The notes beneath the pieces were generated by a model, which made no database searches, had not been told where the DNA came from, and saw nothing but the letters and a program-made list of their open reading frames with translations. 64,000 nt of DNA from Planctomycetota bacterium (lineage in GTDB: Bacteria; Planctomycetota; Phycisphaerae; Sedimentisphaerales; Anaerohalosphaeraceae), in contig DUZQ01000001.1 in NCBI GenBank assembly GCA_013349435.1, positions 25,877 through 89,876 on the forward strand. The letters run 5' to 3'. The position numbers and the translations under genes are program-made. Positions 29,198 to 63,880 of this stretch are shown one piece after another (position 1 is the first letter of the stretch; each line of letters begins with the position of its first letter).

Positions 29198-29353
29198 GTG
29201 AAACATATAACTATCGAAAAACGATTCTGTTCATGTCGAATGTTTGAGGGCCTGGAGGAGGTCAAACGAATCTACTGGTATGGCACAAATAACCAGAAAA
29301 ACCATTTATTTAGCGAAGTCATAAATGCACGGAAAAACCACGAGTTTCCATAG
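29198..29353 (+). CDS. candidate 51-codon upstream ORF or leader peptide (very uncertain)
   Basis: GTG at 29198 is preceded by GGAAGGAGA (29185-29193). Translation: VKHITIEKRFCSCRMFEGLEEVKRIYWYGTNNQKNHLFSEVINARKNHEFP. No family recognised. Confidence 0.25.
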   Translation: MKHITIEKRFCSCRMFEGLEEVKRIYWYGTNNQKNHLFSEVINARKNHEFP

Positions 29354-29402
29354 ATTCAGTCGGAGTAAGGTTACAATTTCTTCTTTTAGGAATGAAGTGA
29401 AA

Positions 29403-32400: not shown

Positions 32401-32921
32401 GTGAGGCAGCAGGAACGGGCGACTGGGCCGGCTGGGGTGTGAAGGTTCTATATTATCCTTATGATATACAGCCAATCTTTAATGACCCCTGCAGGCCTGG
32501 TGGTAGTTGCGTTAGTTGCCACAGCGGCGGAAGTCCATCCGGTGATCTTGATCTTAGCGATGGTCTCACAGAGGCGTACAACGTTTCTTATGAAAGTTTA
32601 ACATATGGTGGATATTGCGGTCCGTTGGTTTTTGAAAATAATGACCACATGGATGATGATCTGACGCAGTTCGAGCCGCCTATGTATTTCGGCTGTCATA
32701 ATTCTTATCTTGCCTGGTGGCTTTATAATGATGCGACTCACAGGGCAAGACTTACTGACCAGGAACTGAGAACCATATTCCGATGGGTGGACACTAATTA
32801 CCAGTACTACGGCACCTATTACGGCAGGCATCATAGTGACCACTCCAGTGATCCTGATTTCAGGCGGATGCCGACAGTCGAAGAAGCAATCAGTTATGAT
32901 GCGCCATCGTGGCATAATTAA
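29403..32921 (+). CDS. secreted multidomain protein: LamG-like lectin domain, two Fn3/Ig-like modules, a TolB/hydrazine-synthase-alpha-middle-like beta-propeller region, and two CxxCH haem-c sites (the second PSCyt1-like)
   Basis: Trimmed to MKRLILTIAVSVLCLYPA (ATG 29403). The LamG_3-like segment is HCFDDLNDSSGNGHTASLQGGA...LFAIWNR, and YYWRIDEV marks repeat modules. CIGCH lies at 32292-32306 and CVSCH at 32508-32522, the latter in the context IQPIFNDPC...CVSCHSGGSPSGDLDLSDG. Confidence 0.75.
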   Translation: MKRLILTIAVSVLCLYPAKMGQAAVQDGVEVAHCFDDLNDSSGNGHTASLQGGANLSGGMVYFDGNGDYVNVGSGTWSSNPCDGSSNFTIAIAYASSQTGEGEEGAALACIGDPSVEGGSGHLTIFTNNNGQYVDCWYVGAVLGGTQYSGLSYSFSDGNMHCCFITYNASTDMVKLYALDGGSAVAGPSGTLGINTTGSNEYPRLGRAHDDPYNDFATVELNGQISLFAIWNRIISTSEMELVEDLCVPPNPCRPNNPSPANLDEHIDYRNLILDWSVEGGCDPCTTYDVYFGTSSPPPLQASGVTNTDWSCPSPLNIDQWYWWQIKAQVPGDPCSPIEGSEWKFKTGGKAYNPSPYDGEGNVQTSSQLSWSGDSFADSYNVYFGTTPDGGTFQDNTTDPCFTPTLEAETPYYWRIDEVIGGSPQTGDVWSFETALAPPDPEELGFDEILFVQRPSFASDHFYTDFIHYDPDGLFRSDNGIYKYNLTTHVIAPVITAADMPGGQGVFYKFDLDWDASRIVFDYKRGVGYGYRIWMCDIDGSNLTQITTTPPDEAANMAEYDMGEYTYSFHYDDMHPCFTQEDTIIFTSTRCKFTTLCDYDGVLTTPVLHRINIDGTGLEKLTDSPVSEFAPSMMSDGRVVYTRWEYVDKDSLYCKVGYAMNPDGSHVNEIIGLDHHSPPTFNYFRQVPTNPNKFVCVGAPHYWQGDNLGPILLIDRTKEVRTHEEPDDPTPGPAVTYVTPKVHIWQEPGWNFWTGSGWVMDEDGSSGKLYTTPYPLNETQFLVTCKYNDSDSWDTRDAYDIYLIDVSENHIPLVSVSGTSCWNPYPLKTRDKPIKINALKFPSYVASNQGLALVTDVYKGLEGEGDPPIARGDVKYLRVNMVVSRPWSCHRILLWDPVVSSTGWAAALWPRVQLGIVPVEDDGSAYFVVPADRNIFLQALDSEYRELQRERTYINFRPGEFRSCIGCHEQSGHAPTPPYGSSEAVMAFQNPPVIPEPMPGEAAGTGDWAGWGVKVLYYPYDIQPIFNDPCRPGGSCVSCHSGGSPSGDLDLSDGLTEAYNVSYESLTYGGYCGPLVFENNDHMDDDLTQFEPPMYFGCHNSYLAWWLYNDATHRARLTDQELRTIFRWVDTNYQYYGTYYGRHHSDHSSDPDFRRMPTVEEAISYDAPSWHN

Positions 32922-32986
32922 AAATTGAAATAGTTGTTTGGTATCTTAAAGATAGTTGAATAATCTTAAAATATGAAGGTGGAAAG

Positions 32987-35011
32987 GTGGATACAATACA
33001 CAACAAAAGGCTCTATGTGATATCGGTATTGATTCTGGTTTTAGCATTAACTGTAAATGCCCGGGCGTCTGATTATTATTCACCTGCGGCAGTTGCGCTT
33101 GACAATGCAGGGCAATATCTCTACATCGCCGAACACACAGCCAACCAGATTGAAGAGTTTAACACTTCGACCGAGACGGTTACAAGGACATTGTCACTGG
33201 ATAAGGCGCCTACCGGTGTGGTTTGTTCCAGCAGCGGGAAGTTGTATATAACAGCCGGTGATTATAATGGGAAAGTGTACGTAATCGACACTACCGAAAC
33301 AGAGTGGGCGGTAAACGATACCATTGATGTTGGGCATACGCCTATGTCGCCCGTACTAAGTTCCGATGGCTTGCATCTTTATATATGCAACCGTTTTGAC
33401 GGGACGGTTATGGATATTGGTACTGCTTCCGGGACGGTACTGAGCACGATTGATGTAGTTCGTGAGCCGGTGGCGGCTGCGATAACACCCACCTCTGACA
33501 AGCTGGTCGTCGTTAATCAACTGCCCGACGGCGCTGCCAACACCGGGACAACGGGTTGTGATGTTTCAGTAATGAATACTTCCGGCTATGCGGTAACGAA
33601 TATTGAGCTTTACAACGGTTCTACCGGTGCAAAAGGCGTTTGTATATCGCCGGACGGCAATTATGCCTATATAACACATATCATTGGTCGTTACCAGGTT
33701 CCGACGAGTCAGCTTGAAAGAGGCTGGATTATGACAAACGCGATGAGCATTATCAATCTTAACACGTCGCAAATCGTTAATACGGTCCTGCTCGATGATG
33801 TGGAAATGGGAGCTGCGAATCCCTGGGGCATCGCCTGTACGAGCGATGGGAGCAAATTGGTTGTCGCTCATTCAGGAAGCCATGAACTAAGTATCATAGA
33901 CAGGAACGGTGTTCATAATCGTCTTTCAAATCTGCCGTATACCGGTGGATTTTCCCAGACCTCTACTGACGTACGCAATGACCTGGGCTTTTTGTCCGGA
34001 TTGAGAAACAGAATACAACTTCCGGGCAAAGGCCCGAGGGCGGTAGCAGTCTATGGGAACAAGGCATACGTCGCTGAATATTTCTCGGACAGCATCTCGA
34101 TCATAAATATCGACACCAAAGCTGTTGAACAGGCTCTCTTAGGTTCGCAAAATCCAATGGACCAAGTCAGGCTCGGAGAATTTTATTTCTACGATGCTCA
34201 GCAGGGCACTTTTCAAAAGTGGCTCAGTTGTAACAGTTGTCATCCCGACGTACGTGCGGACGCCTTAAACTGGGACCTTGCCAACGATGGTTACGGAAGC
34301 CCCAGAAACGCCAAAAGTTTATTGAAATCGCATTACACACCTCCCGCGATGATAACAGGCATACGACCCGATGCAGAGACTGCGGTTCGTGCCGGTTTTA
34401 AGTTTATCCAGTTTGCAATTCGAACTGAAGATGACGCCGGCGCCGTCGATGCGTTCCTGGGTTCTGTTGAACCTGTTGAAAGCCCCTATCTGGTAAACGG
34501 CGAGCTGAGCGAGGCCGCCGAGCGAGGTAAGGATCTGTTCGATTCGGCATATTGCAGCGTATGTCACTACGGACGGTATTACACTGATCAATCTTCACAC
34601 GACGTGGGCACGGGCAGAGGAGGCGGTGAGTCGTTTGACACACCCACCCTGACCGAGGTGTGGCGGACGGGGCCGTATCTTCAGGATGGCCGGGCAGCAA
34701 CGATGCTGGAAGTCCTAACTACGTACAATCCAGGGGACCGGCACGGCGTTACATCGGACTTGACCGAACAACAGCGAAACGATCTTGCTGAGTATGTTTT
34801 AAGCCTTGGTGTTTCACAGGAAACGTGTATTGGTGACTTCGACGGCAATGGGGGAGTCGGCCCTGAGGACCTGGAGATTTTGGCCGCCGCCTGGCTGAGC
34901 TTTTCGGGCGGTTCCAACTGGAACCATGTTTGTGATATATCCGACCCGAACGACCTGGTTATCAACGGGAAGGATTTTGCAGTCTTTTCGGGCAACTGGT
35001 TGTGCCCTTAA
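32987..35011 (+). CDS. secreted YVTN/YncE-type beta-propeller fused to a di-haem cytochrome c peroxidase (CCP/MauG-like) domain and a C-terminal dockerin-like module
   Basis: GTG start and signal peptide. CNSCH lies at 34229-34243 and CSVCH at 34553-34567. FDTPTLTEVWRTGPYLQDGRAATMLEV is the CCP family signature. The C-terminus is GDFDGNGGVGPEDLEILAAAWL...NHVCDISDPNDLVINGKDFAVFSGNWL. Confidence 0.8.
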   Translation: MDTIHNKRLYVISVLILVLALTVNARASDYYSPAAVALDNAGQYLYIAEHTANQIEEFNTSTETVTRTLSLDKAPTGVVCSSSGKLYITAGDYNGKVYVIDTTETEWAVNDTIDVGHTPMSPVLSSDGLHLYICNRFDGTVMDIGTASGTVLSTIDVVREPVAAAITPTSDKLVVVNQLPDGAANTGTTGCDVSVMNTSGYAVTNIELYNGSTGAKGVCISPDGNYAYITHIIGRYQVPTSQLERGWIMTNAMSIINLNTSQIVNTVLLDDVEMGAANPWGIACTSDGSKLVVAHSGSHELSIIDRNGVHNRLSNLPYTGGFSQTSTDVRNDLGFLSGLRNRIQLPGKGPRAVAVYGNKAYVAEYFSDSISIINIDTKAVEQALLGSQNPMDQVRLGEFYFYDAQQGTFQKWLSCNSCHPDVRADALNWDLANDGYGSPRNAKSLLKSHYTPPAMITGIRPDAETAVRAGFKFIQFAIRTEDDAGAVDAFLGSVEPVESPYLVNGELSEAAERGKDLFDSAYCSVCHYGRYYTDQSSHDVGTGRGGGESFDTPTLTEVWRTGPYLQDGRAATMLEVLTTYNPGDRHGVTSDLTEQQRNDLAEYVLSLGVSQETCIGDFDGNGGVGPEDLEILAAAWLSFSGGSNWNHVCDISDPNDLVINGKDFAVFSGNWLCP

Positions 35012-35226: not shown

Positions 35227-35904
35227 GTGCAAGGTGTAAAAACAAAACGAGAGTTAGAAGTTCGTGATTGCGGCCTGATGGCCTACAAAGACGCGTTGAA
35301 TCTGCAAAAAAGCCTCGTTGAACAAAGACAGAACGGCCAAATCGGCAACACTATACTGATATTGGAACATCCGCCTGTAATTACGTTAGGTGTCCGCAAG
35401 GATTTGAATAAGTTGCTTGTTGATGAAGATATTCCGGCGCAAAAGGGAATTGAGATTGTGCTGGTTCGCCGCGGTGGAGGTGCCACAGCACACAACCCGG
35501 GGCAAGTTGTCCTGTACCCGATTATCAAGCTCAAGTCGCTTGGATTAGGTGTAAGCGACTATATCAGGGTTCTGGAGGCAATTGGTCTTGAACTCCTCGA
35601 ACAATTGGGAGTGTGGGCCGAGAGACGAAGAGGATTTCCGGGACTGTGGACAAAAGGCGGGAAAATAGGTTCGATAGGGGTGCAAATCAGGCGATGGACA
35701 ACTTTCCATGGAATGGCCATCAACATCAATAACGATTTGAGTATCTTCGAGACCATCGTACCCTGTGGTCTGGAGGGCGTGGAAATAACAAGTGTATTGA
35801 AGCAAACGGCCACGGAATATCCGATGACCCGGGTAAAAAAAAGATTAACGGATTTGTGTTTCAAGCACCTTGCGGGTCGAAATGTTAAATCGTTGAGTTT
35901 GTGA
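35227..35904 (+). CDS. lipB: lipoyl(octanoyl) transferase
   Basis: LEHPPVITLG and RRGGGATAHNPGQ motifs; GTG start. Confidence 0.9.
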   Translation: MQGVKTKRELEVRDCGLMAYKDALNLQKSLVEQRQNGQIGNTILILEHPPVITLGVRKDLNKLLVDEDIPAQKGIEIVLVRRGGGATAHNPGQVVLYPIIKLKSLGLGVSDYIRVLEAIGLELLEQLGVWAERRRGFPGLWTKGGKIGSIGVQIRRWTTFHGMAININNDLSIFETIVPCGLEGVEITSVLKQTATEYPMTRVKKRLTDLCFKHLAGRNVKSLSL

Positions 35905-36803
35905 GACGGCGAATGGCCGAATCGATTGGCAAACTGCCCGTATGGCTCAAGAGGAGATTCAAAACCGGCGAAACCTACAGCCACACACGCGATGTGCTTA
36001 ACTCGCTGGGCCTGGAGACGATATGCACCAATGCAAACTGTCCGAACATCGGCGAGTGCTGGTCAAGAGGCACCGCAACGGTCCTGATTTCAGGCAATGT
36101 ATGTACGCGCAATTGCAGGTTCTGCTCCGTCGCCGCCGGCAGGCCCGAACCCCCCGACCCGGACGAGCCGAGGCGGGTGGCACAGATGGCCAGGCGATTA
36201 AATCTGAAGTATCTCGTTATTACAAGCGTTACCCGAGACGATTTGCCCGACGGAGGTGCGGCACATTTTAGAAACGTGGTAAACAGGTGCAGACGCGAAA
36301 TACCTGATATGCGATTCGAGCTGCTCGTGCCCGATTTTCGAGACGGACAGGATGATGCGATAAAGATTCTTGCTGAGGCAGTGCCCTTTGTGTTCGCTCA
36401 CAATGTTGAGACCGTACCTTCACTATATCCCAAGGTTCGTGCCGGTGCCGATTACAACCTCTCTTTAGACCTGTTGAGAAGGGCCAAACAGGCATATCCC
36501 GACATCCAGACCAAATCCTCGATTATGTTAGGTCTCGGCGAGAGCGATACAGAGGTCATCAATGTCCTGAAGGACTTGCGGCGGGCACGGTGCGACCGAA
36601 TCGCAATAGGTCAGTACTTAAGGCCCGATAAAGATGCTGTAAGTGTCGTAAAATTCATATCACCGGACAAGTTCGACTGGTGGCACAAAAAGGCCGAGAG
36701 CCTGGGATTTTCGTGGGTGATGGCCTCGCCGTTCACCAGAAGCTCATTCGGCGCCGAAAAGGATAATCCGGAAAATACAAAAAGACCTCTTAATATACCT
36801 TAA
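35901..36803 (+). CDS. lipA: lipoyl synthase (radical SAM)
   Basis: CPNIGECW and CTRNCRFCSV clusters. The start overlaps the lipB stop. Confidence 0.95.
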   Translation: MRRRMAESIGKLPVWLKRRFKTGETYSHTRDVLNSLGLETICTNANCPNIGECWSRGTATVLISGNVCTRNCRFCSVAAGRPEPPDPDEPRRVAQMARRLNLKYLVITSVTRDDLPDGGAAHFRNVVNRCRREIPDMRFELLVPDFRDGQDDAIKILAEAVPFVFAHNVETVPSLYPKVRAGADYNLSLDLLRRAKQAYPDIQTKSSIMLGLGESDTEVINVLKDLRRARCDRIAIGQYLRPDKDAVSVVKFISPDKFDWWHKKAESLGFSWVMASPFTRSSFGAEKDNPENTKRPLNIP

Positions 36804-36810
36804 TATATCC

Positions 36811-36839
36811 TTGACCCAAACCTTGCTTTTTGGTATAAT
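36811..36839 (+). promoter_or_regulatory. near-consensus sigma70 promoter
   Basis: TTGACC (36811-36816), a 17-nt spacer, then TATAAT (36834-36839); about 235 nt upstream of the ATG at 37076. Confidence 0.6.
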
Positions 36840-37075: not shown

Positions 37076-38476
37076 ATGAACAGGTACAAGGGGAGAAACA
37101 GGCACCTTCGCCGGGGGGCTATCCTTATTATCGCCGTGATTTTCGTCGCCGTTTTCTCATCTTTTGGACTGGCGGTGTTGACAATGTCCTCGACCAACGT
37201 CCGGGTAGCCGACAATCAACAAAAGGCCAACCGGGCGCTCGAAAGCGCGCAGTCCGGACTCGAAGTAATGAAGTACTGGCTCGGACGAGTGGCTATGCCC
37301 GGCGATACCACACCTGCAGACAGGTTCAGCACCCTGACATACCTTCTAAATTCCGATATGGGCAACGCCGGTATTTATGTCAACCAGGCTTATGACGACG
37401 ATGGTTACCCTGCATCTCTTGGCCTTGGTGACGTAGCTGTAAGCGCTCTTACGGACCAATCTTTTTCAACCTCTCTTCAAAAAACCGCCGACCTCGATGT
37501 ACTTCAAATGGATATTACAGGCAACTCCAATTCCATAGCACGAACCATCAGGGTCAATTACACCTTTGGCACAAGGGCTCATAATGTTTTCGACTACGGC
37601 GTGGCAACAAAAGGCCCTTTGAGTCTTTCCGGTAACATCGATATGAGCGGCGCCACAGTGGCTGTCGAGGCCGACGTTTATATCGAAAGTCATAATCAAA
37701 ACGAAGCTCTTTCCATCATAGGCAACTCACAAATTGCAGGTGATGTACAAATCACAAACCCCGACGCATACGTTACCCTTCAGGGTGGACAGGCCGGTAT
37801 AGGCGGAGAAACCGGGGAAGCCGCTCTCGATAACGTTACAATCGGGGCAGAACCTGCAGAGTTTCCCATTCCTCTGACCGGTTATTTCGAGCAGTATGTA
37901 CAGAACACTTTTGACCCTGCGATTCACGACACAAGTGCCGACAACACATACGAGAACATAAGGATACCCGGCGGAACCAATCCCCACTTCTCCGGCAATG
38001 TAACTCTCAACGGAATAATCTTTATCGAAACGCCTAACATCGTAACATTTACCGGAAACGTCAATATCACCGGCATGGTCATAGGTGACGGTGATATGAA
38101 TGACAATTCGGGCGCAAATCAATTGACATTCTTAGGCAACGTCAGCAGCAATCCTGTTGGCGACCTGCCCGAGACCTCTCAGTTTGACGGTATCCGGGAC
38201 GAAACCGGCACCTTTCTTATGGCGCCCGGATTCAGCGCATCTTTCGGCGGAAACTTTGACACCCTAAACGGTGCGATAGCCGCCAACGGTATCAATTTCT
38301 TCGGTAATGCAGGTGGAACAATCAACGGCTCCATATTGAACTATTCCGATACACCCATGACATTCAGCGGCAACAGTGACCTTATCTTCAACCGTTCGGG
38401 CATAACCGAGGTGCCCGCGGGTTTCGGGCCCGAGATAATACTTCATTATGTCTCGGAATCTTATTCGGAAGTGTAA
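37076..38476 (+). CDS. PilX_N-like membrane-anchored protein with a Gly/Asn-rich beta-helix-like ectodomain
   Basis: The N-terminus RRGAILIIAVIFVAVFSSFGLAVLTMSSTNVRVADNQQKANRALESAQSGLE matches the PilX N-terminal domain pattern (recall). It has no G|FTLxE prepilin site. Repeated GN..I.G rungs follow. It is a paralog of 40152-41831. Confidence 0.65.
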   Translation: MNRYKGRNRHLRRGAILIIAVIFVAVFSSFGLAVLTMSSTNVRVADNQQKANRALESAQSGLEVMKYWLGRVAMPGDTTPADRFSTLTYLLNSDMGNAGIYVNQAYDDDGYPASLGLGDVAVSALTDQSFSTSLQKTADLDVLQMDITGNSNSIARTIRVNYTFGTRAHNVFDYGVATKGPLSLSGNIDMSGATVAVEADVYIESHNQNEALSIIGNSQIAGDVQITNPDAYVTLQGGQAGIGGETGEAALDNVTIGAEPAEFPIPLTGYFEQYVQNTFDPAIHDTSADNTYENIRIPGGTNPHFSGNVTLNGIIFIETPNIVTFTGNVNITGMVIGDGDMNDNSGANQLTFLGNVSSNPVGDLPETSQFDGIRDETGTFLMAPGFSASFGGNFDTLNGAIAANGINFFGNAGGTINGSILNYSDTPMTFSGNSDLIFNRSGITEVPAGFGPEIILHYVSESYSEV

Positions 38477-38546
38477 GGCTGATAACAGCCTTGAAAAATC
38501 AAACAAAAAAACTGATTTACAGCGAAAAAATATAAAGGGTGAAGAA

Positions 38547-40049
38547 ATGAGAAACTTAAAAACTACAATCTGTTTTTTAGGATTGCTGATTGCCGGTTCC
38601 GCCGGCGCGGCGGTTCACTATGTTCCCACGGACTACCCTACTATTCAGGCTGCCATTGACGCCGCTTCCGGCGGTGATTCCATCGTGATAAACCCCGGAA
38701 CGTATTCGGGCCCCGGTAATTACAGCATCAGCTTCAAAGGTAAGGCAATTACGGTTCAAAGTACCGACCCCGGTGATCCTTATGTAGTTAATACAACTGT
38801 AATTGACTGCCAGGGATCGCCTTCAACGCGGGGCTTCGTCTTTCATTCCGGCGAAACGTCGGATTCAAAACTGACGGGCCTGACAATCACCGGCGGCGAT
38901 AACTTTTTGGGTGGTGGTATATACTGCTATAACAGCAGCAGCCCTGCAATCAGCAAATGTGTTATTACCGCTAATTCAGCCGTATTCGGTGGGGCGGTCG
39001 CGGTTGGAAACAACAACAGCCAACCCACTATTTCCGCTTGCACTATCACGGAAAACTCCGCTATGGTGGGCGGCGGCGCAATATATTGCATTGGTTCGGG
39101 TCCCAGATTCGAAAGCTGCATCATTGCAGGAAACTTTGCGCCCCGAGGCGGTGCCGTCTATAGCCATAACCCCGGCAATTCCATCATAGCCAATTGCACA
39201 ATCACTTCAAATGCAGCCTCTGTATGGGGAGGGGCTTTCTATTGTTTCGCATCAGGCAACATGGATATAAGTAACTGCATCCTCTGGGACAATACCGCCT
39301 CAAGTGCATCGGAAATGATGGTCGGCAATGTGGGCGCACCCGCTTCTGTCAGCATTTCATATTGCGATATCCAGGGCCTGTCGGCTGGTGTAGTAGCCAA
39401 CAGCGGCTCGACCGTCAATTGGGGACAGGGTAATATCGACCTTGACCCTATGTTTGTAAGCGGCGGTCAGATGGACAGCATCACCAAAGTTTATACCAAG
39501 GGCAATTACCACTTGACTGAAGACTCTCCCTGCATCGACGCCGGTAACCCCTCGTTCGTTGCAGGTACACAAATCGATATTGACGGTGAAAGCAGGTTAT
39601 CTGGAGCGGCGGTGGATATCGGAGCAGATGAATTCGCAGTCGTATCGACCATAAATGCTGACATCAAGTTCAGGCCCAGGGCACTAAACCTGAGAAGCAG
39701 GGGCAGGTGGACGCTCTGCACCATAAAGCTTGATGACGGCCATGACGTTCGGGATATAGCCGTTGACAGCATCAAACTGAACAACGAAGTGAAACCTTCG
39801 GCAGCCAAAGCTTTCCGATTCAGCAAGAAGCTTTTTGTTATGTTCAACCGGGCGGAGGTTGAAAACACATTAAGCGATGCCCAGGGATCTGCGCTGATTG
39901 TTGTCACCGGAAATCTTGGAGATGGTACCGTCTTTGAGGGACAGGATACCATCAAGATAGTAAACGGATACTGTAACATGAAAAACAAAACATTTGGGAA
40001 GCTAAGCAAGCACTTCAAGCAAAAATGCGGCAAGATTTGCAAAAAGTAA
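38547..40049 (+). CDS. secreted right-handed beta-helix (pectin-lyase-fold) protein with a C-terminal Ig-like domain and a Lys-rich tail
   Basis: Trimmed to MRNLKTTICFLGLLIAGSAGA. YPTIQAAIDAASGGDSIVINPGTY is followed by about 22-aa rungs (TGGDN..GGGIYC, ANSAVFGGAVA, ENSAMVGGGAIYC...). The C-terminal part has RPRALNLRSRGRWTLCTIKL... Confidence 0.7.
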   Translation: MRNLKTTICFLGLLIAGSAGAAVHYVPTDYPTIQAAIDAASGGDSIVINPGTYSGPGNYSISFKGKAITVQSTDPGDPYVVNTTVIDCQGSPSTRGFVFHSGETSDSKLTGLTITGGDNFLGGGIYCYNSSSPAISKCVITANSAVFGGAVAVGNNNSQPTISACTITENSAMVGGGAIYCIGSGPRFESCIIAGNFAPRGGAVYSHNPGNSIIANCTITSNAASVWGGAFYCFASGNMDISNCILWDNTASSASEMMVGNVGAPASVSISYCDIQGLSAGVVANSGSTVNWGQGNIDLDPMFVSGGQMDSITKVYTKGNYHLTEDSPCIDAGNPSFVAGTQIDIDGESRLSGAAVDIGADEFAVVSTINADIKFRPRALNLRSRGRWTLCTIKLDDGHDVRDIAVDSIKLNNEVKPSAAKAFRFSKKLFVMFNRAEVENTLSDAQGSALIVVTGNLGDGTVFEGQDTIKIVNGYCNMKNKTFGKLSKHFKQKCGKICKK

Positions 40050-40151
40050 TTAAACCCGCAGGTTTGCGGTCGCCGGCTTTAATAAGGAATTTCTTCTGAT
40101 TTGGATGAGTTAAAGGTGCCAGCTTGAATACCGCGCCGGAAGGAGGGTAGT

Positions 40152-41831
40152 ATGAGCAAGCACGAAAGGAAAAACAAAAACAGTCCGCAAGGTGTGGTCC
40201 TTGTCGTTGCGATGATTTTTATGGTAGTCTTTTCATCGCTGGGTGTTGCTATGTTGAGAATGTCATCTACCAATATCCGGGTAGCGGATAATCACCATAA
40301 GGCAAATACCGCAATGGATGCGGCACTTTCAGGTCTGGAGTGCGGTCAATATTTCATCGCTAACTACTCGCCAGTTAGCAACACCACCGACAATCTTATT
40401 ACCACTCAGGAGGCTGATGCCGCCTGGAATCAGTTCTCATATCAAATTCAACAAATCGGGGGACAATCAGCCACAACCGGCCGGCTGACTAATGATGTTG
40501 GAACCGAGACTGGTGATTTCATCGAGGCAACCAACGTAAACCTTGGTGGGATAGGTGCCTCTTTCAACATCAAATTCTCTCGACTTGATACCGATCCCTT
40601 CACTATTATACTTGAGTCAACCGGAACATACGGCCAGCTCTCCCGACGGGTAAGAATGAGTGTGGCAATCGCCAAGGATACCAGAACCCTCGAGTATGCA
40701 GTAGCAAGTAAAAGCCGTATCATCGTTACCGGAGATTCCACTATCGAAGGTGATATATACAGTACCTATGACAGGCCCAACTACGCGCCTCCTTTTGAGC
40801 TGCGGGCTGAATCAACGGTAAACGGAACTCTTAATACCGTTGTTGAGAAAGGCTATTTCAATCCCCAAAGTACCGACTATGTCGGCTATACACTTGAGAC
40901 GCTGGATGAAAACGGCAATCCTATGTTCGATGAAAACGGCAACCGCGTCTACAGCGAAGGCGATATGGTTCAGGGTACACATCAAGGCATCAATTACGGC
41001 CAGCCCCTGCCCACCCTGCCCGGTTTCGAAGCTTCCGATTACGATACGAGTTCCTACGGAAATAACCCCAACATGTCGTATTTTGCGCTGTCCGACACGA
41101 CCGACGGAGTTGATGGCCGTGTTACTGAATATTTCCCCCATGCTGATAATGATTTTACACAGCCCCTCAACGGGAGCAGCAAACAGATTCATCGCTATGT
41201 CATTGAAAACCAGACCATCACAAATCGCACCCTCAGAGCGGGCAGCAACGCACTGTTTCGAAACTGCACCTTTGAAGGTGTCCTGTTCGTTGAATCCACC
41301 ACCGAAAACCCTTATTACCCCAACTACGCCGACAGCCGGACCGGAAACAATGTCAGGTTTGAGAACTGCAACTTTAACGGGACAATAGTAACGGAAGTCC
41401 CCGAAGATTTTCAGTGGAAAAACAATATGCTGTATTTTACTAATGATGCCATATTCAACAACACTTATATGGAAGAGGCCACAATCCTGGCTCCCAATTT
41501 TAATGTAAACGTTGGAAACGCCAGGGCGCTCGAGGATGGAAGTGAAAGTGTATTAGAAGGTCTCGTGGTCGGAGGTATAGTTGACATACGCGGTAACGCC
41601 AGTGTCGAGGGTACAATACTTTCGATGTATGACCCTTCGGAACTTGGTTATGCATCGAGGCAGTACGGAACCAATGTCGGCTTTTCCGATGAAAATAACG
41701 AAGCATCTGTCCCCGGCGACGCAGAATTCGGAACTATTCATGTTCGTCCCGATCCCGACCGGATGCTGCCCGTCGGCGTAGCGAGTGATATTATCCTTGT
41801 GGTTGACCAGACAAGCTACCAGGAGCTTTAA
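40152..41831 (+). CDS. PilX_N-like membrane-anchored protein, paralog of 37076-38476
   Basis: The N-terminus PQGVVLVVAMIFMVVFSSLGVAMLRMSSTNIRVADNHHKANTAMDAALSGLE aligns residue-for-residue with the 37076 product. A strong GGAGGG SD is present, and the C-terminal region is beta-helix-like (NCTFEGVLFVE, NCNFNGTIVTE). Confidence 0.65.
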   Translation: MSKHERKNKNSPQGVVLVVAMIFMVVFSSLGVAMLRMSSTNIRVADNHHKANTAMDAALSGLECGQYFIANYSPVSNTTDNLITTQEADAAWNQFSYQIQQIGGQSATTGRLTNDVGTETGDFIEATNVNLGGIGASFNIKFSRLDTDPFTIILESTGTYGQLSRRVRMSVAIAKDTRTLEYAVASKSRIIVTGDSTIEGDIYSTYDRPNYAPPFELRAESTVNGTLNTVVEKGYFNPQSTDYVGYTLETLDENGNPMFDENGNRVYSEGDMVQGTHQGINYGQPLPTLPGFEASDYDTSSYGNNPNMSYFALSDTTDGVDGRVTEYFPHADNDFTQPLNGSSKQIHRYVIENQTITNRTLRAGSNALFRNCTFEGVLFVESTTENPYYPNYADSRTGNNVRFENCNFNGTIVTEVPEDFQWKNNMLYFTNDAIFNNTYMEEATILAPNFNVNVGNARALEDGSESVLEGLVVGGIVDIRGNASVEGTILSMYDPSELGYASRQYGTNVGFSDENNEASVPGDAEFGTIHVRPDPDRMLPVGVASDIILVVDQTSYQEL

Positions 41832-41963: not shown

Positions 41964-42007
41964 GCCGCCTGAAGCGCGTTATTTACCGCTTCAGGCGGCG
42001 TCTTTTT
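41964..42007. terminator. strong hairpin terminator between convergent genes
   Basis: GCCGCCTGAAGCG (41964-41976), a 10-nt loop, CGCTTCAGGCGGC (41987-41999), then TCTTTTT. Confidence 0.8.
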
Positions 42008-42028: not shown

Positions 42029-42862
42029 TCAGTGAATCAGTCCCAGGCGACGCAGGGTAGCACCTGCCCATCTGGCCGAGCGAACCTGGGCAAAAACAAA
42101 CAGCAAAAGCGTTATCAGCCACAGCACCAAAAATCGAAGATACCAAAGCACCTGGCTGACAACTGTATCTTCAGCCGTCGGTGCAGCAGTACACAGCAAT
42201 TCGGCCGGGGTATAAACGGTCCCTGCAACCACACCGGCAAAAAGCCTCTGCCATGGAAACAGCAGCACAAGACCGAAAAGCGAGAGAATAAAGGCGCGAC
42301 AGATATGGTTCATGCCGCCTAATCGACCGACCAGCGATATCTTAATGCTCACCAGCAATATAAAACAGTAAAGTGTCGCCGCGATGATAAGAATGAAGTT
42401 GCACGCCCAAATCAGTGTAGCAATGTGGCTGCAGTTGAAAGCGAACTGTGTGCCGGGCTTTGTTTGGTTACCATCGGTCTGAGCAGGAGCAGGAGCGGCT
42501 GTGCCCGCAGATTCGTCCGGCTGGGCCGTTTCTTCGCCGATATCGGCGGTTGCAAGTTGGGCCTGCTCTGCGATTGTCCCGGCTTGGCCTGCGGTCGATG
42601 CTTCAACAACACCCCCGGCATCCGGATTCGCGTCTGCCCGGCCGCTGCAGGGGACCCCGAAAACAAGCCCTTTGTCAGTCATCTCGTAACAACCGGTATT
42701 ATCGATGTAGCCTAATTGCCGGAGCCAGAAAGCGGCCTGCAACAACAAAAGGCACAACAAAATAACGAAGAACAAAAAGTTCTTCGTGGCTTTGAACGCA
42801 TTGACCGCTTCAAGACAATCGGTGGTATCAACCATATCCTTTGTTTTTTCGTTCTCATTCAT
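42029..42862 (-). CDS. hypothetical membrane protein with a low-complexity Ala/Gln/Thr-rich linker
   Basis: Trimmed to the ATG at 42860-42862, which has GGGAGA upstream. It has 4-5 TM segments and no recognised family. Confidence 0.65.
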   Translation of the reverse strand: MNENEKTKDMVDTTDCLEAVNAFKATKNFLFFVILLCLLLLQAAFWLRQLGYIDNTGCYEMTDKGLVFGVPCSGRADANPDAGGVVEASTAGQAGTIAEQAQLATADIGEETAQPDESAGTAAPAPAQTDGNQTKPGTQFAFNCSHIATLIWACNFILIIAATLYCFILLVSIKISLVGRLGGMNHICRAFILSLFGLVLLFPWQRLFAGVVAGTVYTPAELLCTAAPTAEDTVVSQVLWYLRFLVLWLITLLLFVFAQVRSARWAGATLRRLGLIH

Positions 42863-42907
42863 TTTTCCGTCTCCCAACTTACATTACGCCACAGAGAACC
42901 GTACAGA

Positions 42908-44605: not shown

Positions 44606-46798
44606 ATGCATACAGTTGTTAAATGGATACGCAGGAATCAAAGAAAGCTGATGGCCTTTGTTGTCATCTTCATTATGATAGCCTTTGTCGGTGGTGCCGC
44701 CTTCCAGCAGATTATGAGCAGGATAGGTGCCGGCGGGAGTACCGTTGCGTATTTCGGCGAAAAAGGCAAAATAGCGGGCAGTGATATCCTCCGGGCCCAG
44801 TCCGACCTTAGTGTGCTCAGAATGCTCATGTTCGACAGACTGCTTTATTTCGGCCTGGGGGATTTGCCGTCCAGACTGCTTGGACAACTGCTTTTCCCGG
44901 ACAGCCGTATTGCCGCAGCACTGAGCGACAATATGAAACAAGCGGTTATCCAGGGCCGACTCCGGATGAGTACAAAGGATATAGATACGTTCTTCAGCCA
45001 GGCCACGGGCCGAAGCGAGTTGCTCTGGATTTTGCTAAAGGCTGAAGCAAAACAGGCCGGCTGCATTACGACAAACACCCAGGCCAAGCAGTTACTCAGA
45101 CAGATAGTGCCTCAGCTTACCCAGGGCCAGACCGACGCAAAACGGCTGGTCGATTACATAATCAAAAACCACGGCATTCCGGAAAGACAAATCCTTCGGA
45201 CGACAGCGGACCTCTGGTCAATCCTGGCATATACAAAAATGATTACGAGCAATGAGAATATAACAATCAGCGAGGTTCAGGCCGCTGTCGGGCGCGAAGG
45301 AGAAAGGATTAATGCCGAGTTCGTAAAAATAAACGCTTCCGACTTTGTCGCCGGCGTGGGCGAGCCTGCACCCGAAGAGCTGACCGACCAGTTCGAGCGA
45401 TACAAACAATTTCCACCCGACCGGATAAATGACCGGAATCCCTACGGTTTCGGATACAAACAGCCGGCGAGAATAGTGCTTGAGTACCTTATCCTGAAGC
45501 TGGACGATGTGCAGACATTAATAGCCGAGCCTACGCCGGACGAAACCGAAGCGTTCTATCAGCAAAATCTGGACCTGCCCGACTATCAGTTTCTGTTCAA
45601 ATACGAGGAGCCTGCAGACCCCAACGACCCGGCCTCCACGGTTCAAAAGACCAGGAGCTACGCAGAGGTCGCCGGCCGGATCGAGCGGGTTATGACTCAG
45701 GAAAGAACCAACAGGCAGGCCGACATGATTTTGAATGAGGCGATAGCCCTGGCCGATACGCACCTTACAAACTCAGATGCCGGGCGGGCGGGTGATGCCG
45801 AACCAGCCAAGGCCGCGGCGGGCAGCTACAACGAAGCAGCCGCAAAGCTCAGCGAGGAGTACAAAATAAAGGTTTACGCCGGCCAAACGGGCCTGCTAAG
45901 CGCCGCCGAGGTAGCCGCCGATACGTATCTGGGCAGACTCTCAATCGAAGGTCAGAACCAAAGGGTCGTTCCTCTGGTCAAGGCCGTGTTTGCCCTCAAT
46001 GAGCTTGGTGCCGGCCGGACAGGACCATTAGGGGTGTCAGGTTCAAAGATGTGGCAAAGCATAGGGCCTGCCAGGGACATGTTCGGTTCGATAGTTGCCA
46101 TAGTCAGAGTAATCCAGGCGGAAACCGCAACTGAGCCTGCGGATTTGTACGAAACATTCAACAAAAACGGGGTCACCCTCGACGAAACCGAACAAACCGA
46201 AAACATCTACTCGGTCAGAGACCAGGTTGCCCGGGATATAAAACTGCAAAAAGCTATGAGCGGCGCCGGGAGCCGGGCCTCCGAGCTTGTACAATTAATA
46301 GACCAAAAGGAGGATTGGACCGAGGCTCTGGATGAGCTTAACAGGCTTTATTACGACCCTAACGACCCGCTGTATATTATGACGGTGTCTCAGCAGACCA
46401 GACTTTCTGAAATGGATATAGAGGCCGCCCGTGTTCGCTCGGAGGAGAACCCGGCAGCAACAGCATCCGTCAGAAACCTGGTAGAAAGAAAAAAGATGCT
46501 TGATGAGTTGTACTCTCTCATCCCCGAAGGAAAAACCGAGGCCGCCAATCTCAAATCCGCCATCGAGTTTAAGCCGGGCGCATGTTACTATGTTATCAAA
46601 AATGTCTCGCGTACCGCCGTTACCCGGCAGGATTATCAACAGAAGAAGGCCCAGACCGCTCTTATGCTGGATACGACCCGGGCCGAAAAGCTGTCTTTCA
46701 TTCATCTCGGGCCGGACAATATATTCAAACGAATGAATTACAGGGCCGCAGCCGCCAAGACCGACAACGACAGTAAACAGCCGAACGGAGCACCCTGA
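44606..46798 (+). CDS. membrane-anchored periplasmic chaperone, PpiD/SurA_N-like
   Basis: 730 aa. The N-terminus KWIRRNQRKLMAFVVIFIMIAFVGG is typical of the PpiD-type anchor. I did not recognise a clear parvulin domain. Confidence 0.5.
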   Translation: MHTVVKWIRRNQRKLMAFVVIFIMIAFVGGAAFQQIMSRIGAGGSTVAYFGEKGKIAGSDILRAQSDLSVLRMLMFDRLLYFGLGDLPSRLLGQLLFPDSRIAAALSDNMKQAVIQGRLRMSTKDIDTFFSQATGRSELLWILLKAEAKQAGCITTNTQAKQLLRQIVPQLTQGQTDAKRLVDYIIKNHGIPERQILRTTADLWSILAYTKMITSNENITISEVQAAVGREGERINAEFVKINASDFVAGVGEPAPEELTDQFERYKQFPPDRINDRNPYGFGYKQPARIVLEYLILKLDDVQTLIAEPTPDETEAFYQQNLDLPDYQFLFKYEEPADPNDPASTVQKTRSYAEVAGRIERVMTQERTNRQADMILNEAIALADTHLTNSDAGRAGDAEPAKAAAGSYNEAAAKLSEEYKIKVYAGQTGLLSAAEVAADTYLGRLSIEGQNQRVVPLVKAVFALNELGAGRTGPLGVSGSKMWQSIGPARDMFGSIVAIVRVIQAETATEPADLYETFNKNGVTLDETEQTENIYSVRDQVARDIKLQKAMSGAGSRASELVQLIDQKEDWTEALDELNRLYYDPNDPLYIMTVSQQTRLSEMDIEAARVRSEENPAATASVRNLVERKKMLDELYSLIPEGKTEAANLKSAIEFKPGACYYVIKNVSRTAVTRQDYQQKKAQTALMLDTTRAEKLSFIHLGPDNIFKRMNYRAAAAKTDNDSKQPNGAP

Positions 46799-51945: not shown

Positions 51946-52136
51946 GGTGCATTTGTCGTTTGTAGGTAAAAAAATTCATAACCTCATAAGCCCTGAAAGG
52001 GCGCCATAATATAGCCCAGGGCGCAAGCCCTGGGCCATCGAGCCAAACACCCATTTTAAGCCCTGAAAGGGCGACAAAAGCACTATTATGAATTTCGCCG
52101 TCTTGTAAAAACCCACCTACAAACTACAGATGCACC
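51946..52136. mobile_element. ~190-bp MITE-like element with 22-nt terminal inverted repeats
   Basis: The left TIR GGTGCATTTGTCGTTTGTAGGT (51946-51967) matches the reverse complement of ACCTACAAACTACAGATGCACC (52115-52136) at 20 of 22 positions. Inside are AAGCCCTGAAAGGGCG x2 (51988-52003 and 52058-52073) and the palindrome GCCCAGGGCGCAAGCCCTGGGC (about 52014-52035). No ORF. Confidence 0.6.
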
Positions 52137-63292: not shown

Positions 63293-63880
63293 TTATAATC
63301 TCACAAATTGCAAAAGAAGTCCGTAGTCGTTTTCATCTGCGGCAATTAACGACTCAATATACTTATTTCGATCATCTCCAGATTTTATAAGATCGGCTTT
63401 ACCCCATGTAAATGGACGCTTTTTGAAAACATATTCCAGAAGAATATCAGCCATTAATCTTGCATGCCTGCCGTTGCCGTTTGGGAATAAATGTATTGCT
63501 ACCAACCGATGGTGAAATCGAGCAGCTATTTCATCCTCAGAAAACGTCTTATTGTCTATCCAGTATTTAGCGTCATCGCACAACAGTTTCAGATCAGTGT
63601 GAATTTGATGCCAGGGAACACCAACACTTTTATCACTTTGCCTGAACTTACCAGCCCACTTCCATACATTACAGAACATTCTCCTGTGTAATGACTTAAT
63701 AAAAGACTCGTTCAGAATGTTCTTCGGCTTACGTTCTTCTATCCATGCCAGAGCCTCATTGATATTATCCTGTTCCCATCTGTCTAATTCCGCCCTTGTT
63801 GTAATATGAGTTGGAATCAATCCCTCAATTTCGTTCGGATCAAGGGGTGTCGCACCTTCTGGATAATGGAATTTCATCAT
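63293..63880 (-). CDS. Fic/DOC family protein ('mobile mystery protein B'-like)
   Basis: Fic motif HLFPNGNGRHARL. At 195 aa, the size and architecture match my recollection of mobile mystery protein B. Confidence 0.8.
   Translation of the reverse strand: MMKFHYPEGATPLDPNEIEGLIPTHITTRAELDRWEQDNINEALAWIEERKPKNILNESFIKSLHRRMFCNVWKWAGKFRQSDKSVGVPWHQIHTDLKLLCDDAKYWIDNKTFSEDEIAARFHHRLVAIHLFPNGNGRHARLMADILLEYVFKKRPFTWGKADLIKSGDDRNKYIESLIAADENDYGLLLQFVRL

What the first reader, a model, noticed from the sequence alone, without database searches (positions are those of the whole stretch)
37076..41831. Orphan trio: two PilX_N-like anchored proteins sandwiching a secreted beta-helix protein, with no pilus or T2SS machinery nearby
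Seen: the products of 37076-38476 and 40152-41831 share a colinear N-terminus. It consists of a basic stretch, one hydrophobic helix, then STN(V/I)RVADN(Q/H)(Q/H)KAN...A.SGLE. Long Gly/Asn/Thr-rich regions with rung-like periodicity follow. Between them is a signal-peptide parallel-beta-helix protein with an Ig-like C-terminal domain and a Lys-rich tail. The trio follows a near-consensus promoter (36811-36839) and ends at a strong terminator (41964-42007). Established knowledge, from recall: this N-terminal pattern is the PilX_N type found on pilus or pseudopilus tip and minor components, but here the prepilin-peptidase G|F motif is missing. Inference: the three genes form a self-contained surface fibre or adhesin module, or a tip complex for a pilus encoded elsewhere. 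I know of no function for this arrangement.
Basis: partly seen in the sequence, partly recalled or inferred. Interest (0 to 1): 0.65.

Follow-up and report, generated by a model that had tools for sequence, protein, structure and literature searches.

The report
Orphan solenoid-bearing pilus tip subunits
Two of the three genes encode large pilus-tip subunits of the PilX/GspK/ComZ kind (a pilin stalk with a beta-solenoid grafted on), kept far from the pilus machinery in a Phycisphaerae (Planctomycetota) genome, and the third is a secreted beta-helix protein that often travels with them; this extends a known class to a new phylum.

Summary
The three ORFs, their shared N-terminus, the promoter-like site and the strong terminator are real. 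A (37076-38476) and A' (40152-41831) are full-length paralogues (hhalign E 4.5e-38), not just N-terminal look-alikes.

High-confidence AlphaFold models of both show a ~60-residue pilin helix, a small antiparallel sheet, a large beta-solenoid and a final long strand. For both, the best PDB match is ComZ, the tip pilin of Thermus thermophilus, followed by DUF3494 ice-binding solenoids.

A Gly sits at -1 before the hydrophobic helix in 129 of 137 family members. Position +5 is never Glu, as in the capping subunits GspK and PilX.

No pilus genes lie in the 64-kb window or within 10 kb in 79 of 80 related species. In one relative (L057), A sits back to back with a pilin-G/I/J/K/H-PilMNO-secretin operon.

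The A-B-A' order is confined to the closest relatives. Elsewhere the array is A, A-A', A-A-A', A-B and others, usually just after lipB-lipA. B stays beside A even when the pair has moved.

Verdict: modular tip minor pilins, with an accessory secreted beta-helix protein, for a filament encoded elsewhere. This is a new member of a known kind. The ligand is unknown.

The parts
36811..36839 (+). Promoter-like site: TTGACC, 17-nt spacer, TATAAT, with an upstream TG. It lies 237 bp before the A start codon, in the 272-bp lipA-A spacer.
   Evidence: It is the best site in the region (11 of 12), but the count of such sites is not above the shuffle expectation. Function is inferred only.
37076..38476 (+). 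Gene A: a 466-aa PilX/GspK/ComZ-type modular minor pilin.
   Evidence: PilX_N at 32.9 bits, above cutoff. At least 1493 homologues in Planctomycetota/Phycisphaerae, the 120 best listed sharing 55-83% identity. AF2 pLDDT 87. Foldseek top hit ComZ 6QVI, E 7e-10.
37076..37117 (+). A leader peptide, residues 1-14 (MNRYKGRNRHLRRG). It is basic and ends in the invariant Gly14, the putative prepilin-peptidase cleavage site.
   Evidence: G14 is invariant in 61 sequences. Gly is at -1 in 129 of 137 family members and +5 is never Glu. Cleavage itself is inferred.
37118..37282 (+). A alpha-1 helix, residues 15-69: a hydrophobic alpha1N followed by an amphipathic alpha1C with the conserved motif N41..N47..S60-G61-L62-E.
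   Evidence: AF2 places a helix at residues 8-69. Invariant columns.
37313..37570 (+). A pilin head, residues 80-165: one helix plus a 5-6-stranded antiparallel sheet.
   Evidence: AF2 secondary structure.
37583..38422 (+). A beta-solenoid module, residues ~170-449. It is very acidic (pI 4.05).
   Evidence: AF2. Structural matches to the ComZ and DUF3494 ice-binding solenoids. The same module boundaries (profile positions 170-449) recur in Sec-secreted, non-pilin proteins P0379 and P0386. Composition.
38432..38470 (+). A last long beta-strand, residues 453-465 (EIILHYVSESYSE). It is inferred to return to the pilin sheet, so the solenoid would be an insertion before the last pilin strand, as in ComZ.
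   Evidence: AF2 strand at 453-465. The strand is absent from homologues that lack the pilin head and present in P0397, which has the head.
38547..40049 (+). Gene B: a 500-aa Sec-exported right-handed beta-helix protein. It has a choice-of-anchor-Q (Disaggr_assoc-like) segment, a beta-rich C-terminal domain and a Lys-rich tail.
   Evidence: B is adjacent to A on the same strand in 10 of 50 complete species loci. The pair is kept together after relocation in L090 and L105.
40152..41831 (+). Gene A': a 559-aa divergent full-length paralogue of A with the same architecture. Leader residues 1-14 end in Gly14. Helix 13-70, head 85-175, a longer solenoid, and a last strand at 545-558.
   Evidence: hhalign of A2 against A3 gives probability 100, E 4.5e-38, 450 aligned columns. 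AF2 pLDDT 86, pTM 0.82. Foldseek top hit ComZ, E 2.7e-10. 560 homologues.
41964..42007 (+). Intrinsic terminator: a 13-bp GC-rich stem followed by a T-run. It lies between the convergent A' gene and the minus-strand membrane-protein gene 42029-42877.
   Evidence: dG -32.9 kcal/mol, z -5.2, 0 of 200 shuffles as stable.

Best explanation
A and A' are modular tip ('capping') minor pilins of a type IV filament, either a T4P-like pilus or a T2SS-like pseudopilus, whose assembly genes lie elsewhere in the genome.

Proposed mechanism:
1. Each protein is made with a 14-residue basic leader.
2. A prepilin peptidase is inferred to cut after the invariant Gly14.
3. The hydrophobic alpha1N helix holds the protein in the inner membrane.
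4. The protein lacks Glu5, as GspK, PilX and ComZ do. It therefore takes the most distal position of the priming complex formed with GspI/J-like (PilV/W-like) minor pilins.
5. It is pushed out first, so the ~280-360-residue beta-solenoid, grafted before the last strand of the pilin sheet, is displayed at the filament tip.

Genomes of this order carry one K-type subunit inside the machinery operon (solenoid-like region plus LamG domain) and 1-4 orphan K-type genes (A-type and A'-type). These most likely act as alternative caps that give the same machine different tip modules.

B is a co-transcribed, Sec-exported beta-helix protein. It is most likely an accessory that works with the A tip, either as a partner or cargo of the filament or as a co-displayed binding or polysaccharide-active module.

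The ligand is not known. The very acidic solenoid argues against a ComZ-like DNA receptor. In this sulfatase- and glycosidase-rich organism, binding to a conserved polymer or particle, or a PilY1-like plug role, is more likely.

Shown: sequence features, predicted fold, family distribution and gene contexts. Inferred: cleavage, incorporation at the tip, use of alternative caps, and B's partnership.
For: - PilX_N hit above cutoff for A.
- Gly at -1 in 129 of 137 members; +5 is hydrophobic, never Glu.
- AF2 models of A and A' show a 55-60-residue N-terminal helix, a pilin-like sheet, a solenoid and a terminal strand.
- ComZ (6QVI) is the top PDB match for both models (E 7e-10 and 2.7e-10, probability 1.0), followed by DUF3494 ice-binding proteins. 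This is the relationship reported for ComZ's own solenoid (PMC6561018).
- Cyanobacterial PilX proteins have the same solenoid insertion and lack Glu5 (bioRxiv 10.64898/2026.02.12.705559).
- In L057/L092, A is divergently adjacent to an operon with three N_methyl pilins, a K-like protein with LamG, GspH, PilM, PilN, PilO and a secretin.
- That operon is conserved in 11 further metagenome contigs that the scan with the L057 PilM protein retrieved (L093-L103).
- Canonical GFTLIE prepilins occur on several A-bearing contigs.
- The solenoid module also occurs on Sec-secreted PKD/dockerin-like proteins. It is therefore a portable extracellular 'effector' module.
- B stays next to A after relocation (L090, L105).
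- Two representative proteins fuse a B-like choice-of-anchor-Q beta-helix to the A-type solenoid (P0400, P0394).
Against: - No pilin partner, peptidase, ATPase or secretin lies within the 64-kb window, or within 10 kb in 79 of 80 species loci. Machinery in the window's own genome is not demonstrated.
- Foldseek TM-scores to ComZ are low (0.2-0.3), although probability is 1.0. GspK itself is not among the top hits.
- Profile searches find no sequence similarity to any PDB chain. The NCBIfam GspK model scores only 16 bits against a cutoff of 130.
- A is unusually conserved for an adhesin: 55-83% identity among the 120 best homologues listed and ~80 invariant columns. It also sits in a housekeeping neighbourhood, which fits a core envelope role as well.
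- The B-like/solenoid fusion proteins are fragments and could be assembly chimeras.
- B also occurs without A (L087).
Confidence: 0.58

Rival explanations
1. T2SS variant of the same idea. A and A' cap a short periplasmic pseudopilus (a GspK role), and B is a Sec-exported cargo that the A tip recognises and pushes through the secretin. The A-B pair would then be a tip adaptor and its cognate exoprotein.
For: - The linked operon in L057 has GspH- and GspG/I/J-like pilins plus a secretin, and could be T2SS-like.
- B has a Sec signal peptide and a polysaccharide-lyase-like beta-helix.
- A-B adjacency survives relocation.
- B-like/solenoid fusions exist.
Against: - The operon carries PilM/N/O rather than GspL/M.
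- A 280-360-residue solenoid is large for a periplasmic piston.
- Most species have A without B.
- No interaction was tested.
Confidence: 0.2
2. A and A' are not filament subunits. The N-terminal helix is an uncleaved signal anchor, and they are inner-membrane-tethered periplasmic beta-solenoid proteins with a conserved envelope or housekeeping function. The PilX_N resemblance would be ancestral only.
For: - Orphan position.
- lipB-lipA lies directly upstream in 59 of 69 species.
- All conserved neighbours are housekeeping genes: lpdA, carB, lon, folP, hemL.
- High sequence conservation.
- The solenoid also works outside a pilin context.
Against: - An invariant Gly exactly at the -1 position, a basic leader and the absence of Glu5 are hard to explain for a plain anchor.
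- The fold is a pilin stalk plus sheet, with ComZ as the best match.
- A is physically linked to a pilus operon in L057.
Confidence: 0.12
3. ComZ-like competence function: A and/or A' is the DNA receptor at the tip of a DNA-uptake pilus.
For: - The closest solved structure is ComZ, a DNA-binding tip pilin (PMC6561018).
- A conserved ligand such as DNA would explain the high conservation.
- Cyanobacterial PilX-Com subunits have the same architecture.
Against: - The A solenoid has pI 4.05, with only 1 Lys and 3 Arg in 280 residues. The A' solenoid has pI 4.2. ComZ binding depends on lysines.
- No com genes are nearby.
- There is no sequence similarity to ComZ.
Confidence: 0.08
4. B is functionally unrelated to A and A'. 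It is an ordinary secreted beta-helix enzyme or adhesin that happens to sit in the array.
For: - B is absent from 40 of 50 complete loci.
- B stands alone in L087.
- The B family is very large: at least 3186 hits, most of unknown context.
- The Lys-rich tail is not conserved.
Against: - When present, B is always on the same strand, 40-100 bp from A.
- The pair moved together to new neighbourhoods.
- B-like/solenoid fusions exist.
Confidence: 0.35

Closest known systems
ComZ of Thermus thermophilus (PDB 6QVI; PMC6561018)
   Same: - A GspK-like pilin domain with a large triangular beta-solenoid whose nearest relatives are DUF3494 ice-binding proteins.
- Not recognised by standard pilin motifs.
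- Proposed to cap the filament.
- Best Foldseek match for both A and A'.
   Different: - No detectable sequence similarity.
- ComZ lies inside a pilin locus next to its partner PilA2. A and A' are orphans beside lipBA.
- ComZ binds DNA through lysines, whereas the A and A' solenoids are strongly acidic.
- TM-scores are only 0.2-0.3.
Cyanobacterial PilX1-3 / HpsA-type PilX (bioRxiv 10.64898/2026.02.12.705559)
   Same: - PilX-class subunits without Glu5, with a bulky solenoid inserted before the C-terminal strand.
- Several paralogues per genome are proposed to cap different filaments.
- Genes are not always colocalised with their PilV partners.
   Different: - Different phylum.
- No direct sequence or structure comparison could be run here.
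- Planctomycetal arrays are tandem, sit in a housekeeping block and are often paired with a secreted beta-helix protein.
GspK (T2SS) and PilX (Pseudomonas T4aP) capping minor pilins
   Same: - Basic leader, Gly at -1, no Glu5, PilX_N-type alpha-1 helix.
- The relatives' machinery operon holds a K-type gene in the G-I-J-K-H order.
   Different: - The GspK model scores far below its cutoff (16 bits against 130).
- GspK carries an alpha-helical insertion, and Pseudomonas PilX is small (stated in the papers read).
- A and A' carry a beta-solenoid and are unlinked from the I/J-type partners.
Modular type IV pilins (PilB/PilC of Streptococcus sanguinis; PMC8179133)
   Same: The concept of a pilin 'carrier' module with a grafted 'effector' module that also occurs in non-pilin proteins.
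   Different: - Those pilins have canonical IPR012902 N-termini and C-terminal fusions through a linker.
- Here the N-terminus is the PilX_N type, and the module is inferred to be inserted within the sheet.
Tapirins of Caldicellulosiruptor (PDB 4WA0, 6N2B, 6N2C)
   Same: Beta-helix surface proteins. From recall, not checked in a paper here, they are encoded beside a T4P locus and bind polysaccharide. This is a functional analogy for B and for the solenoid.
   Different: Only marginal Foldseek hits (E 0.3-1). Tapirins are not pilins.

Membership tests
Type IV pilin superfamily (class III signal peptide proteins) | Short, positively charged leader ending in Gly at -1, directly followed by a ~20-residue hydrophobic segment. 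| tested here: met
   Leaders are MNRYKGRNRHLRRG|AILIIAVIFVAVFSSFGLAVL and MSKHERKNKNSPQG|VVLVVAMIFMVVFSSLGVAML. G14 is invariant in A and at least 90% conserved in A'. It is present in 129 of 137 members.
Type IV pilin superfamily (class III signal peptide proteins) | Glu at +5 of the mature protein. It is present in most pilins and characteristically absent in capping subunits. | tested here: not met
   The +5 residue is I, L, V, A or M in the 129 members with Gly at -1 (one T and one F apart) and never Glu. This excludes a body subunit and matches the GspK/PilX exception.
Type IV pilin superfamily (class III signal peptide proteins) | Pilin fold: a long N-terminal alpha-1 helix packed on an antiparallel beta-sheet. 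| tested here: met
   AF2 predicts a helix at 8-69 and strands at 102-165 for A, and a helix at 13-70 and strands at 107-175 for A'. This is a prediction, not an experimental structure.
Type IV pilin superfamily (class III signal peptide proteins) | Processing by a prepilin peptidase and assembly by a T4P/T2SS machine in the same genome. | not testable with these tools
   No machinery lies in the window. It is shown only for relative L057/L092, on the same contig. The attempt to link L002 and L102 as one genome failed.
PilX_N (PF14341) | Score above the Pfam gathering threshold. | tested here: met
   A scores 32.9 bits against a 25.5-bit cutoff. A' scores 21.3 bits, below the cutoff, but is a full-length homologue of A.
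T2SS GspK (NF037980 / T2SSK) | Full-length match including the alpha-helical insertion domain. | tested here: not met
   Only residues 13-71 align. Scores are 16.4 and 14.6 bits against a cutoff of 130. There is no Pfam T2SSK hit.
ComZ / solenoid-bearing PilX tip pilins | A large triangular beta-solenoid related to DUF3494 ice-binding proteins, attached to the pilin domain. | tested here: met
   For both models Foldseek ranks ComZ first and ice-binding proteins next.
ComZ / solenoid-bearing PilX tip pilins | [quoted passage not shown] | tested here: inconclusive
   A long terminal strand follows the solenoid. It is lost exactly when the pilin head is lost in homologues. Model coordinates could not be inspected.
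ComZ / solenoid-bearing PilX tip pilins | Encoded beside, or binding to, a small partner minor pilin (PilA2 or PilV). | tested here: not met
   No pilin gene lies in the window or in 79 of 80 species loci. Adjacency occurs only in L057/L092. Binding was not testable.
ComZ / solenoid-bearing PilX tip pilins | DNA binding. | not testable with these tools
   Composition argues against it: solenoid pI 4.05, 1 Lys.
Choice-of-anchor Q / right-handed beta-helix secreted proteins (protein B) | Beta-helix repeats plus the NF041518 domain above its cutoff. | tested here: met
   NF041518 scores 34.5 bits against a cutoff of 25. Chlam_PMP scores 28.5 bits against 20.6. Precomputed Beta_helix and Pel9A-like hits are also on record.

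The most novel reading that the evidence does not exclude
The acidic solenoid tips (A, A') and the secreted beta-helix protein B form a pilus-borne capture device specific to Phycisphaerae. Alternative K-type caps would dock or present secreted beta-helix or dockerin-like modules at the tip of one shared type IV filament. This would give these polysaccharide degraders an exchangeable, cellulosome-like 'tool head'. It would explain the tandem paralogue arrays, the A-B co-migration, the B-like/solenoid fusions, and the reuse of the solenoid on dockerin-like secreted proteins.
Probability: 0.1. Interest if true: 0.7.

Novelty: new member of a known kind. Interest (0 to 1): 0.38.

Why it matters
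Solenoid-bearing capping pilins have so far been described in Thermus (ComZ) and cyanobacteria (PilX). Finding a large, strongly conserved family of them in Phycisphaerae has three consequences.

- It extends the class to the PVC group: at least 1670 clusters at 50% identity and 156 matching stretches among the GTDB species-representative genomes.
- It shows that such caps can be kept as orphan tandem arrays far from the machinery.
- It provides a concrete handle for studying how uncultured anaerobic polysaccharide degraders attach to or sample their substrates: A, A', the operon-encoded LamG cap, and B.

It also corrects automated 'PilX family' labels by giving them a structural rationale. 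In addition, it flags the solenoid as a portable extracellular module.

Tried and rejected
- A profile search of the A family against PDB sequences gave no hit at E <= 1. B against PDB sequences also gave none.
- I tried to show that an orphan A-B locus (L002, SDBV01000457) and a machinery operon (L102, SDBV01003020) belong to one genome because they share a WGS prefix. The prefix probably denotes a metagenome assembly, and tetranucleotide similarity ranks L102 only 29th of 76. I did not use this as evidence.
- Literature searches for PilX or minor pilins in Phycisphaerae, Sedimentisphaerales or Planctomycetes found nothing relevant.
- The top 150 hits of the 1.84-billion-protein representative search were all close family members. 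It did not reveal relatives in other phyla, and hits carry no taxonomy.
- An Rfam scan found no RNA element in the 272-bp lipA-A spacer.
- I considered and dropped a functional tie to lipoate synthesis. All conserved neighbours are unrelated housekeeping genes, and the A-B pair survives separation from lipBA.
- I considered the weak NCBIfam hits ArlF, ComGG and HalA (E 0.05-0.16) to be noise.
- AlphaFold-Multimer modelling of A/B/A' and a structure of B could not be run.

Full report
**1. What is in the sequence**

Three same-strand ORFs lie between lipB-lipA (35227-36803) and a convergent membrane-protein gene:
- A: 37076-38476, 466 aa.
- B: 38547-40049, 500 aa. This is the start used by gene callers on the identical contigs.
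- A': 40152-41831, 559 aa.

The gaps are 70 bp (A to B) and 102 bp (B to A'). The best sigma-70-like site of the region (TTGACC, 17 nt, TATAAT, with an upstream TG) lies at 36811-36839. The number of such sites does not exceed the shuffle expectation. A 13-bp GC-rich hairpin with a T-run at 41964-42007 is a convincing terminator (dG -32.9 kcal/mol, z -5.2).

A and A' share 46% identity over residues 1-79 (E 8e-21). PilX_N scores 32.9 bits for A, above the cutoff, and 21.3 bits for A', below it.

B has a Sec-type signal peptide, Chlam_PMP repeats, a choice-of-anchor-Q domain and a Lys-rich tail.

The window is a metagenomic Planctomycetota/Phycisphaerae contig. Pfam scans of about 45 ORFs found only housekeeping and polysaccharide-related genes. 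A motif regex and phmmer with pilus proteins from a relative found no pilus or T2SS component.

**2. A and A' are full-length paralogues with a pilin-plus-solenoid architecture**

Profile-profile comparison of 61 A-type and 54 A'-type sequences aligns 450 columns, from the leader to the last strand (probability 100, E 4.5e-38).

The AlphaFold2 models are confident:

| Feature | A | A' |
|---|---|---|
| pLDDT | 87 | 86 |
| pTM | 0.73 | 0.82 |
| N-terminal helix | 8-69 | 13-70 |
| Short helix plus antiparallel sheet | 80-165 | 85-175 |
| Large beta-solenoid | present | present, longer |
| Final long strand | 453-465 | 545-558 |

Foldseek against the PDB ranks the Thermus thermophilus competence pilin ComZ (6QVI) first for both models (E 7e-10 and 2.7e-10, probability 1.0). 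DUF3494 ice-binding solenoids come next. The ComZ paper reports this combination for ComZ itself: a GspK-like pilin domain, with a solenoid closest to FfIBP inserted before the last pilin strand (PMC6561018). A 2026 preprint reports the same insertion in all cyanobacterial PilX subunits.

The TM-scores are low (0.2-0.3). No sequence-level similarity to any PDB chain exists. The relationship is therefore one of architecture and fold, not demonstrable orthology.

**3. The prepilin motif is not missing**

Gly14 directly precedes the hydrophobic helix. It is invariant in 61 A sequences and at least 90% conserved in A'. Across the species loci, 129 of 137 A/A' proteins have Gly at -1. The +5 residue is I, L, V, A or M (once T, once F) and never Glu.

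A basic leader, Gly at -1 and the absence of Glu5 together form the signature of the capping subunits GspK and PilX.

**4. Distribution and gene context**

The A family has at least 1493 homologues in the 5.8-billion-protein set. The 120 best are 55-83% identical over the full length, and all named ones come from Planctomycetota, Phycisphaerae or Sedimentisphaerales. A profile search of 1.84 billion representatives finds 1670 clusters, 386 of them at E <= 1e-30.

I classified ORFs with phmmer in 80 GTDB species loci.
- lipA lies directly upstream in 59 of the 69 loci that have enough upstream sequence.
- Among the 50 loci complete on both sides, the arrays are:

| Array | Loci |
|---|---|
| A-A' | 17 |
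| A | 11 |
| A-A-A' | 7 |
| A-B | 6 |
| A'-A-B | 2 |
| B-A-B, B-A-A', A-A, A-A-A, A'-A-A, A'-A, A-A-A-A | 1 each |
| A-B-A' | 0 |

- The A-B-A' order recurs only in the window's own contigs and in one ~82% relative (L104).
- The conserved neighbours are housekeeping genes: lpdA, an lplA-like gene, lipB, lipA, carB, lon, folP and hemL.

**5. Where the machinery is**

In L057 (CAYONQ010000046, the same sequence as metagenome contig L092), the A gene is divergently adjacent (422 bp) to an operon. The operon encodes:
- a GFTLVE major-type pilin and two further N_methyl pilins;
- a 596-aa K-type protein, with a leader of the form RRG|AALLVV, no Glu5, a solenoid-like region and a Laminin_G_3 domain;
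- a GspH-type pilin;
- PilM, PilN and PilO, an ORF with no family assignment, and a secretin.

The scan with the L057 PilM protein retrieved 11 further metagenome contigs. All carry segments of this gene order, and the longest span it from pilin G to the secretin. None of them has A beside it. Canonical GFTLIE prepilins also occur on other A-bearing contigs.

So this lineage owns a type IV filament machine with its own K-type cap, and A/A' are additional K-type genes kept elsewhere. I could not show the machine in the window's own genome. An attempt to tie L002 and L102 to a single genome failed.

**6. Protein B**

Seventeen B-type sequences from the loci, aligned with the window's B, share the signal peptide, the beta-helix, the choice-of-anchor-Q segment and a beta-rich C-terminal domain. 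One of the 17 (L008) is cut off after about 225 residues. The Lys-rich tail is variable. The wider family is large, with at least 3186 hits.

When B is present, it lies 40-100 bp from A on the same strand. The A-B pair stays together in new neighbourhoods: L090/L091 between a DsbD-like gene and a metX/metW-type gene (Abhydrolase_1 + MetW), and L105 after recA-alaS with lipBA moved away. B also occurs alone (L087).

Two representative proteins join a B-like beta-helix (31% identity to B over 380 residues, E 3e-35) or its Disaggr_assoc/choice-of-anchor-Q end to an A-type solenoid (P0400, P0394). Both are fragments, so this is suggestive only.

**7. The solenoid is a portable module**

Homologues match only profile positions ~170-449. 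They carry a Sec signal peptide and PKD domains, and some have sub-threshold Dockerin_1 hits (P0379, P0386, P0385, P0388). They lack both the pilin head and the terminal strand. P0397 keeps the head and also keeps the strand.

This fits the carrier/effector idea of modular pilins (PMC8179133). It also indirectly supports insertion of the solenoid before the last pilin strand.

The A solenoid is extremely acidic: pI 4.05, with 1 Lys and 3 Arg in 280 residues. This speaks against a ComZ-like, lysine-mediated DNA receptor.

**8. Mechanism proposed**

A and A' are inferred to be cleaved after Gly14 and to seat, as Glu5-less distal subunits, on an I/J-type priming complex. They would then be extruded first and display their solenoids at the tip of a filament built by the distant G-I-J-K-H-PilMNO-secretin machine.

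The operon-encoded LamG cap and the 1-4 orphan caps would be alternatives that give different tips. B would be an accessory partner or cargo.

Confidence by step:

| Claim | Confidence |
|---|---|
| Pilin-type architecture | ~0.8 |
| Tip incorporation on a distant machine | ~0.55-0.6 |
| B partnership | ~0.3 |
| Ligand | unknown |

Rivals considered:
- a T2SS pseudopilus tip with B as cargo;
- an uncleaved membrane-anchored envelope protein;
- a DNA receptor;
- B being unrelated to A and A'.

**9. Novelty and score**

NCBI already labels some members 'pilus assembly PilX family protein'. The solenoid-bearing cap architecture is published for Thermus and cyanobacteria. No paper on it in Planctomycetota was found.

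This is a new member of a known kind, with three unusual traits:
- orphan tandem arrays fixed beside lipBA across an order;
- recurrent pairing with a secreted beta-helix protein;
- reuse of the solenoid on secreted dockerin-like proteins.

Interest is moderate, 0.38.

Noticed in passing
window 51989-52034 (-): An Acido-Lenti-1 RNA (RF01687; 60.5 bits against a gathering score of 37) lies 137 bp upstream of the GH10-like gene 50341-51852 (-). It is the only Rfam hit in the window.
   Followed up: no
window 35227-36803 (+) and loci L007-L086: lipB-lipA lies directly upstream, on the same strand, of the PilX_N array in 59 of 69 species. No functional reason is apparent. In L105 and L090 the A-B pair is separated from lipBA. 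Read-through transcription was not tested.
   Followed up: partly
window 29325-35011 (+): A 1198-aa protein with a hydrazine-synthase-alpha middle domain (HZS_alpha) is followed by a 674-aa protein with beta-propeller and CCP_MauG/cytochrome c domains. The second protein ends in a dockerin-like GDFDGNGGVGPEDLEILAAAW motif. The motif was seen by eye and has no Pfam hit at E <= 0.001.
   Followed up: no
window 42029-42877 (-): A 282-aa multi-pass membrane protein has no Pfam family. It is conserved beside hemL and a 730-aa family-less protein (44606-46798) downstream of the array in at least 10 relatives.
   Followed up: partly
window 20031-24754 (+): A 779-aa TPR protein is followed, with a 4-bp overlap, by a sulfatase-TPR fusion of 795 aa. 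An FGE-sulfatase maturase gene lies at 11448-12617 (-) and a PEP-CTERM protein at 13074-13811 (+).
   Followed up: no
L057 5811-7601 (-); L092-L103: The machinery operon's own K-type subunit carries a Laminin_G_3 lectin-like domain after a solenoid-like region. It is conserved in the operon across the metagenome contigs. In L102 and L103 a shorter 381-aa version has no Pfam hit.
   Followed up: partly
L046 482-6100 (+): A second cluster, with a PilM/PilN fusion, a secretin and a response regulator, is followed by an IS (rve) transposase. It lies 4-9 kb upstream of lipBA-A-A' in one Sedimentisphaerales MAG. The proximity is probably coincidental.
   Followed up: partly
L090/L091 1989-5113 (+): A 226-aa prepilin-type (N_methyl, GFTLIELLVVI) protein is encoded immediately before ZnuA, ABC ATPase and permease genes. 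This is an odd pairing of a pilin-like protein with a metal transporter.
   Followed up: no
L081 9893-16276 (+): Four tandem A-type genes sit in one species. This is the largest array seen and suggests active duplication of cap genes.
   Followed up: no
window 63293-63880 (-): A Fic/DOC family protein is encoded next to the murF-mraY cell-wall genes at the window edge.
   Followed up: no
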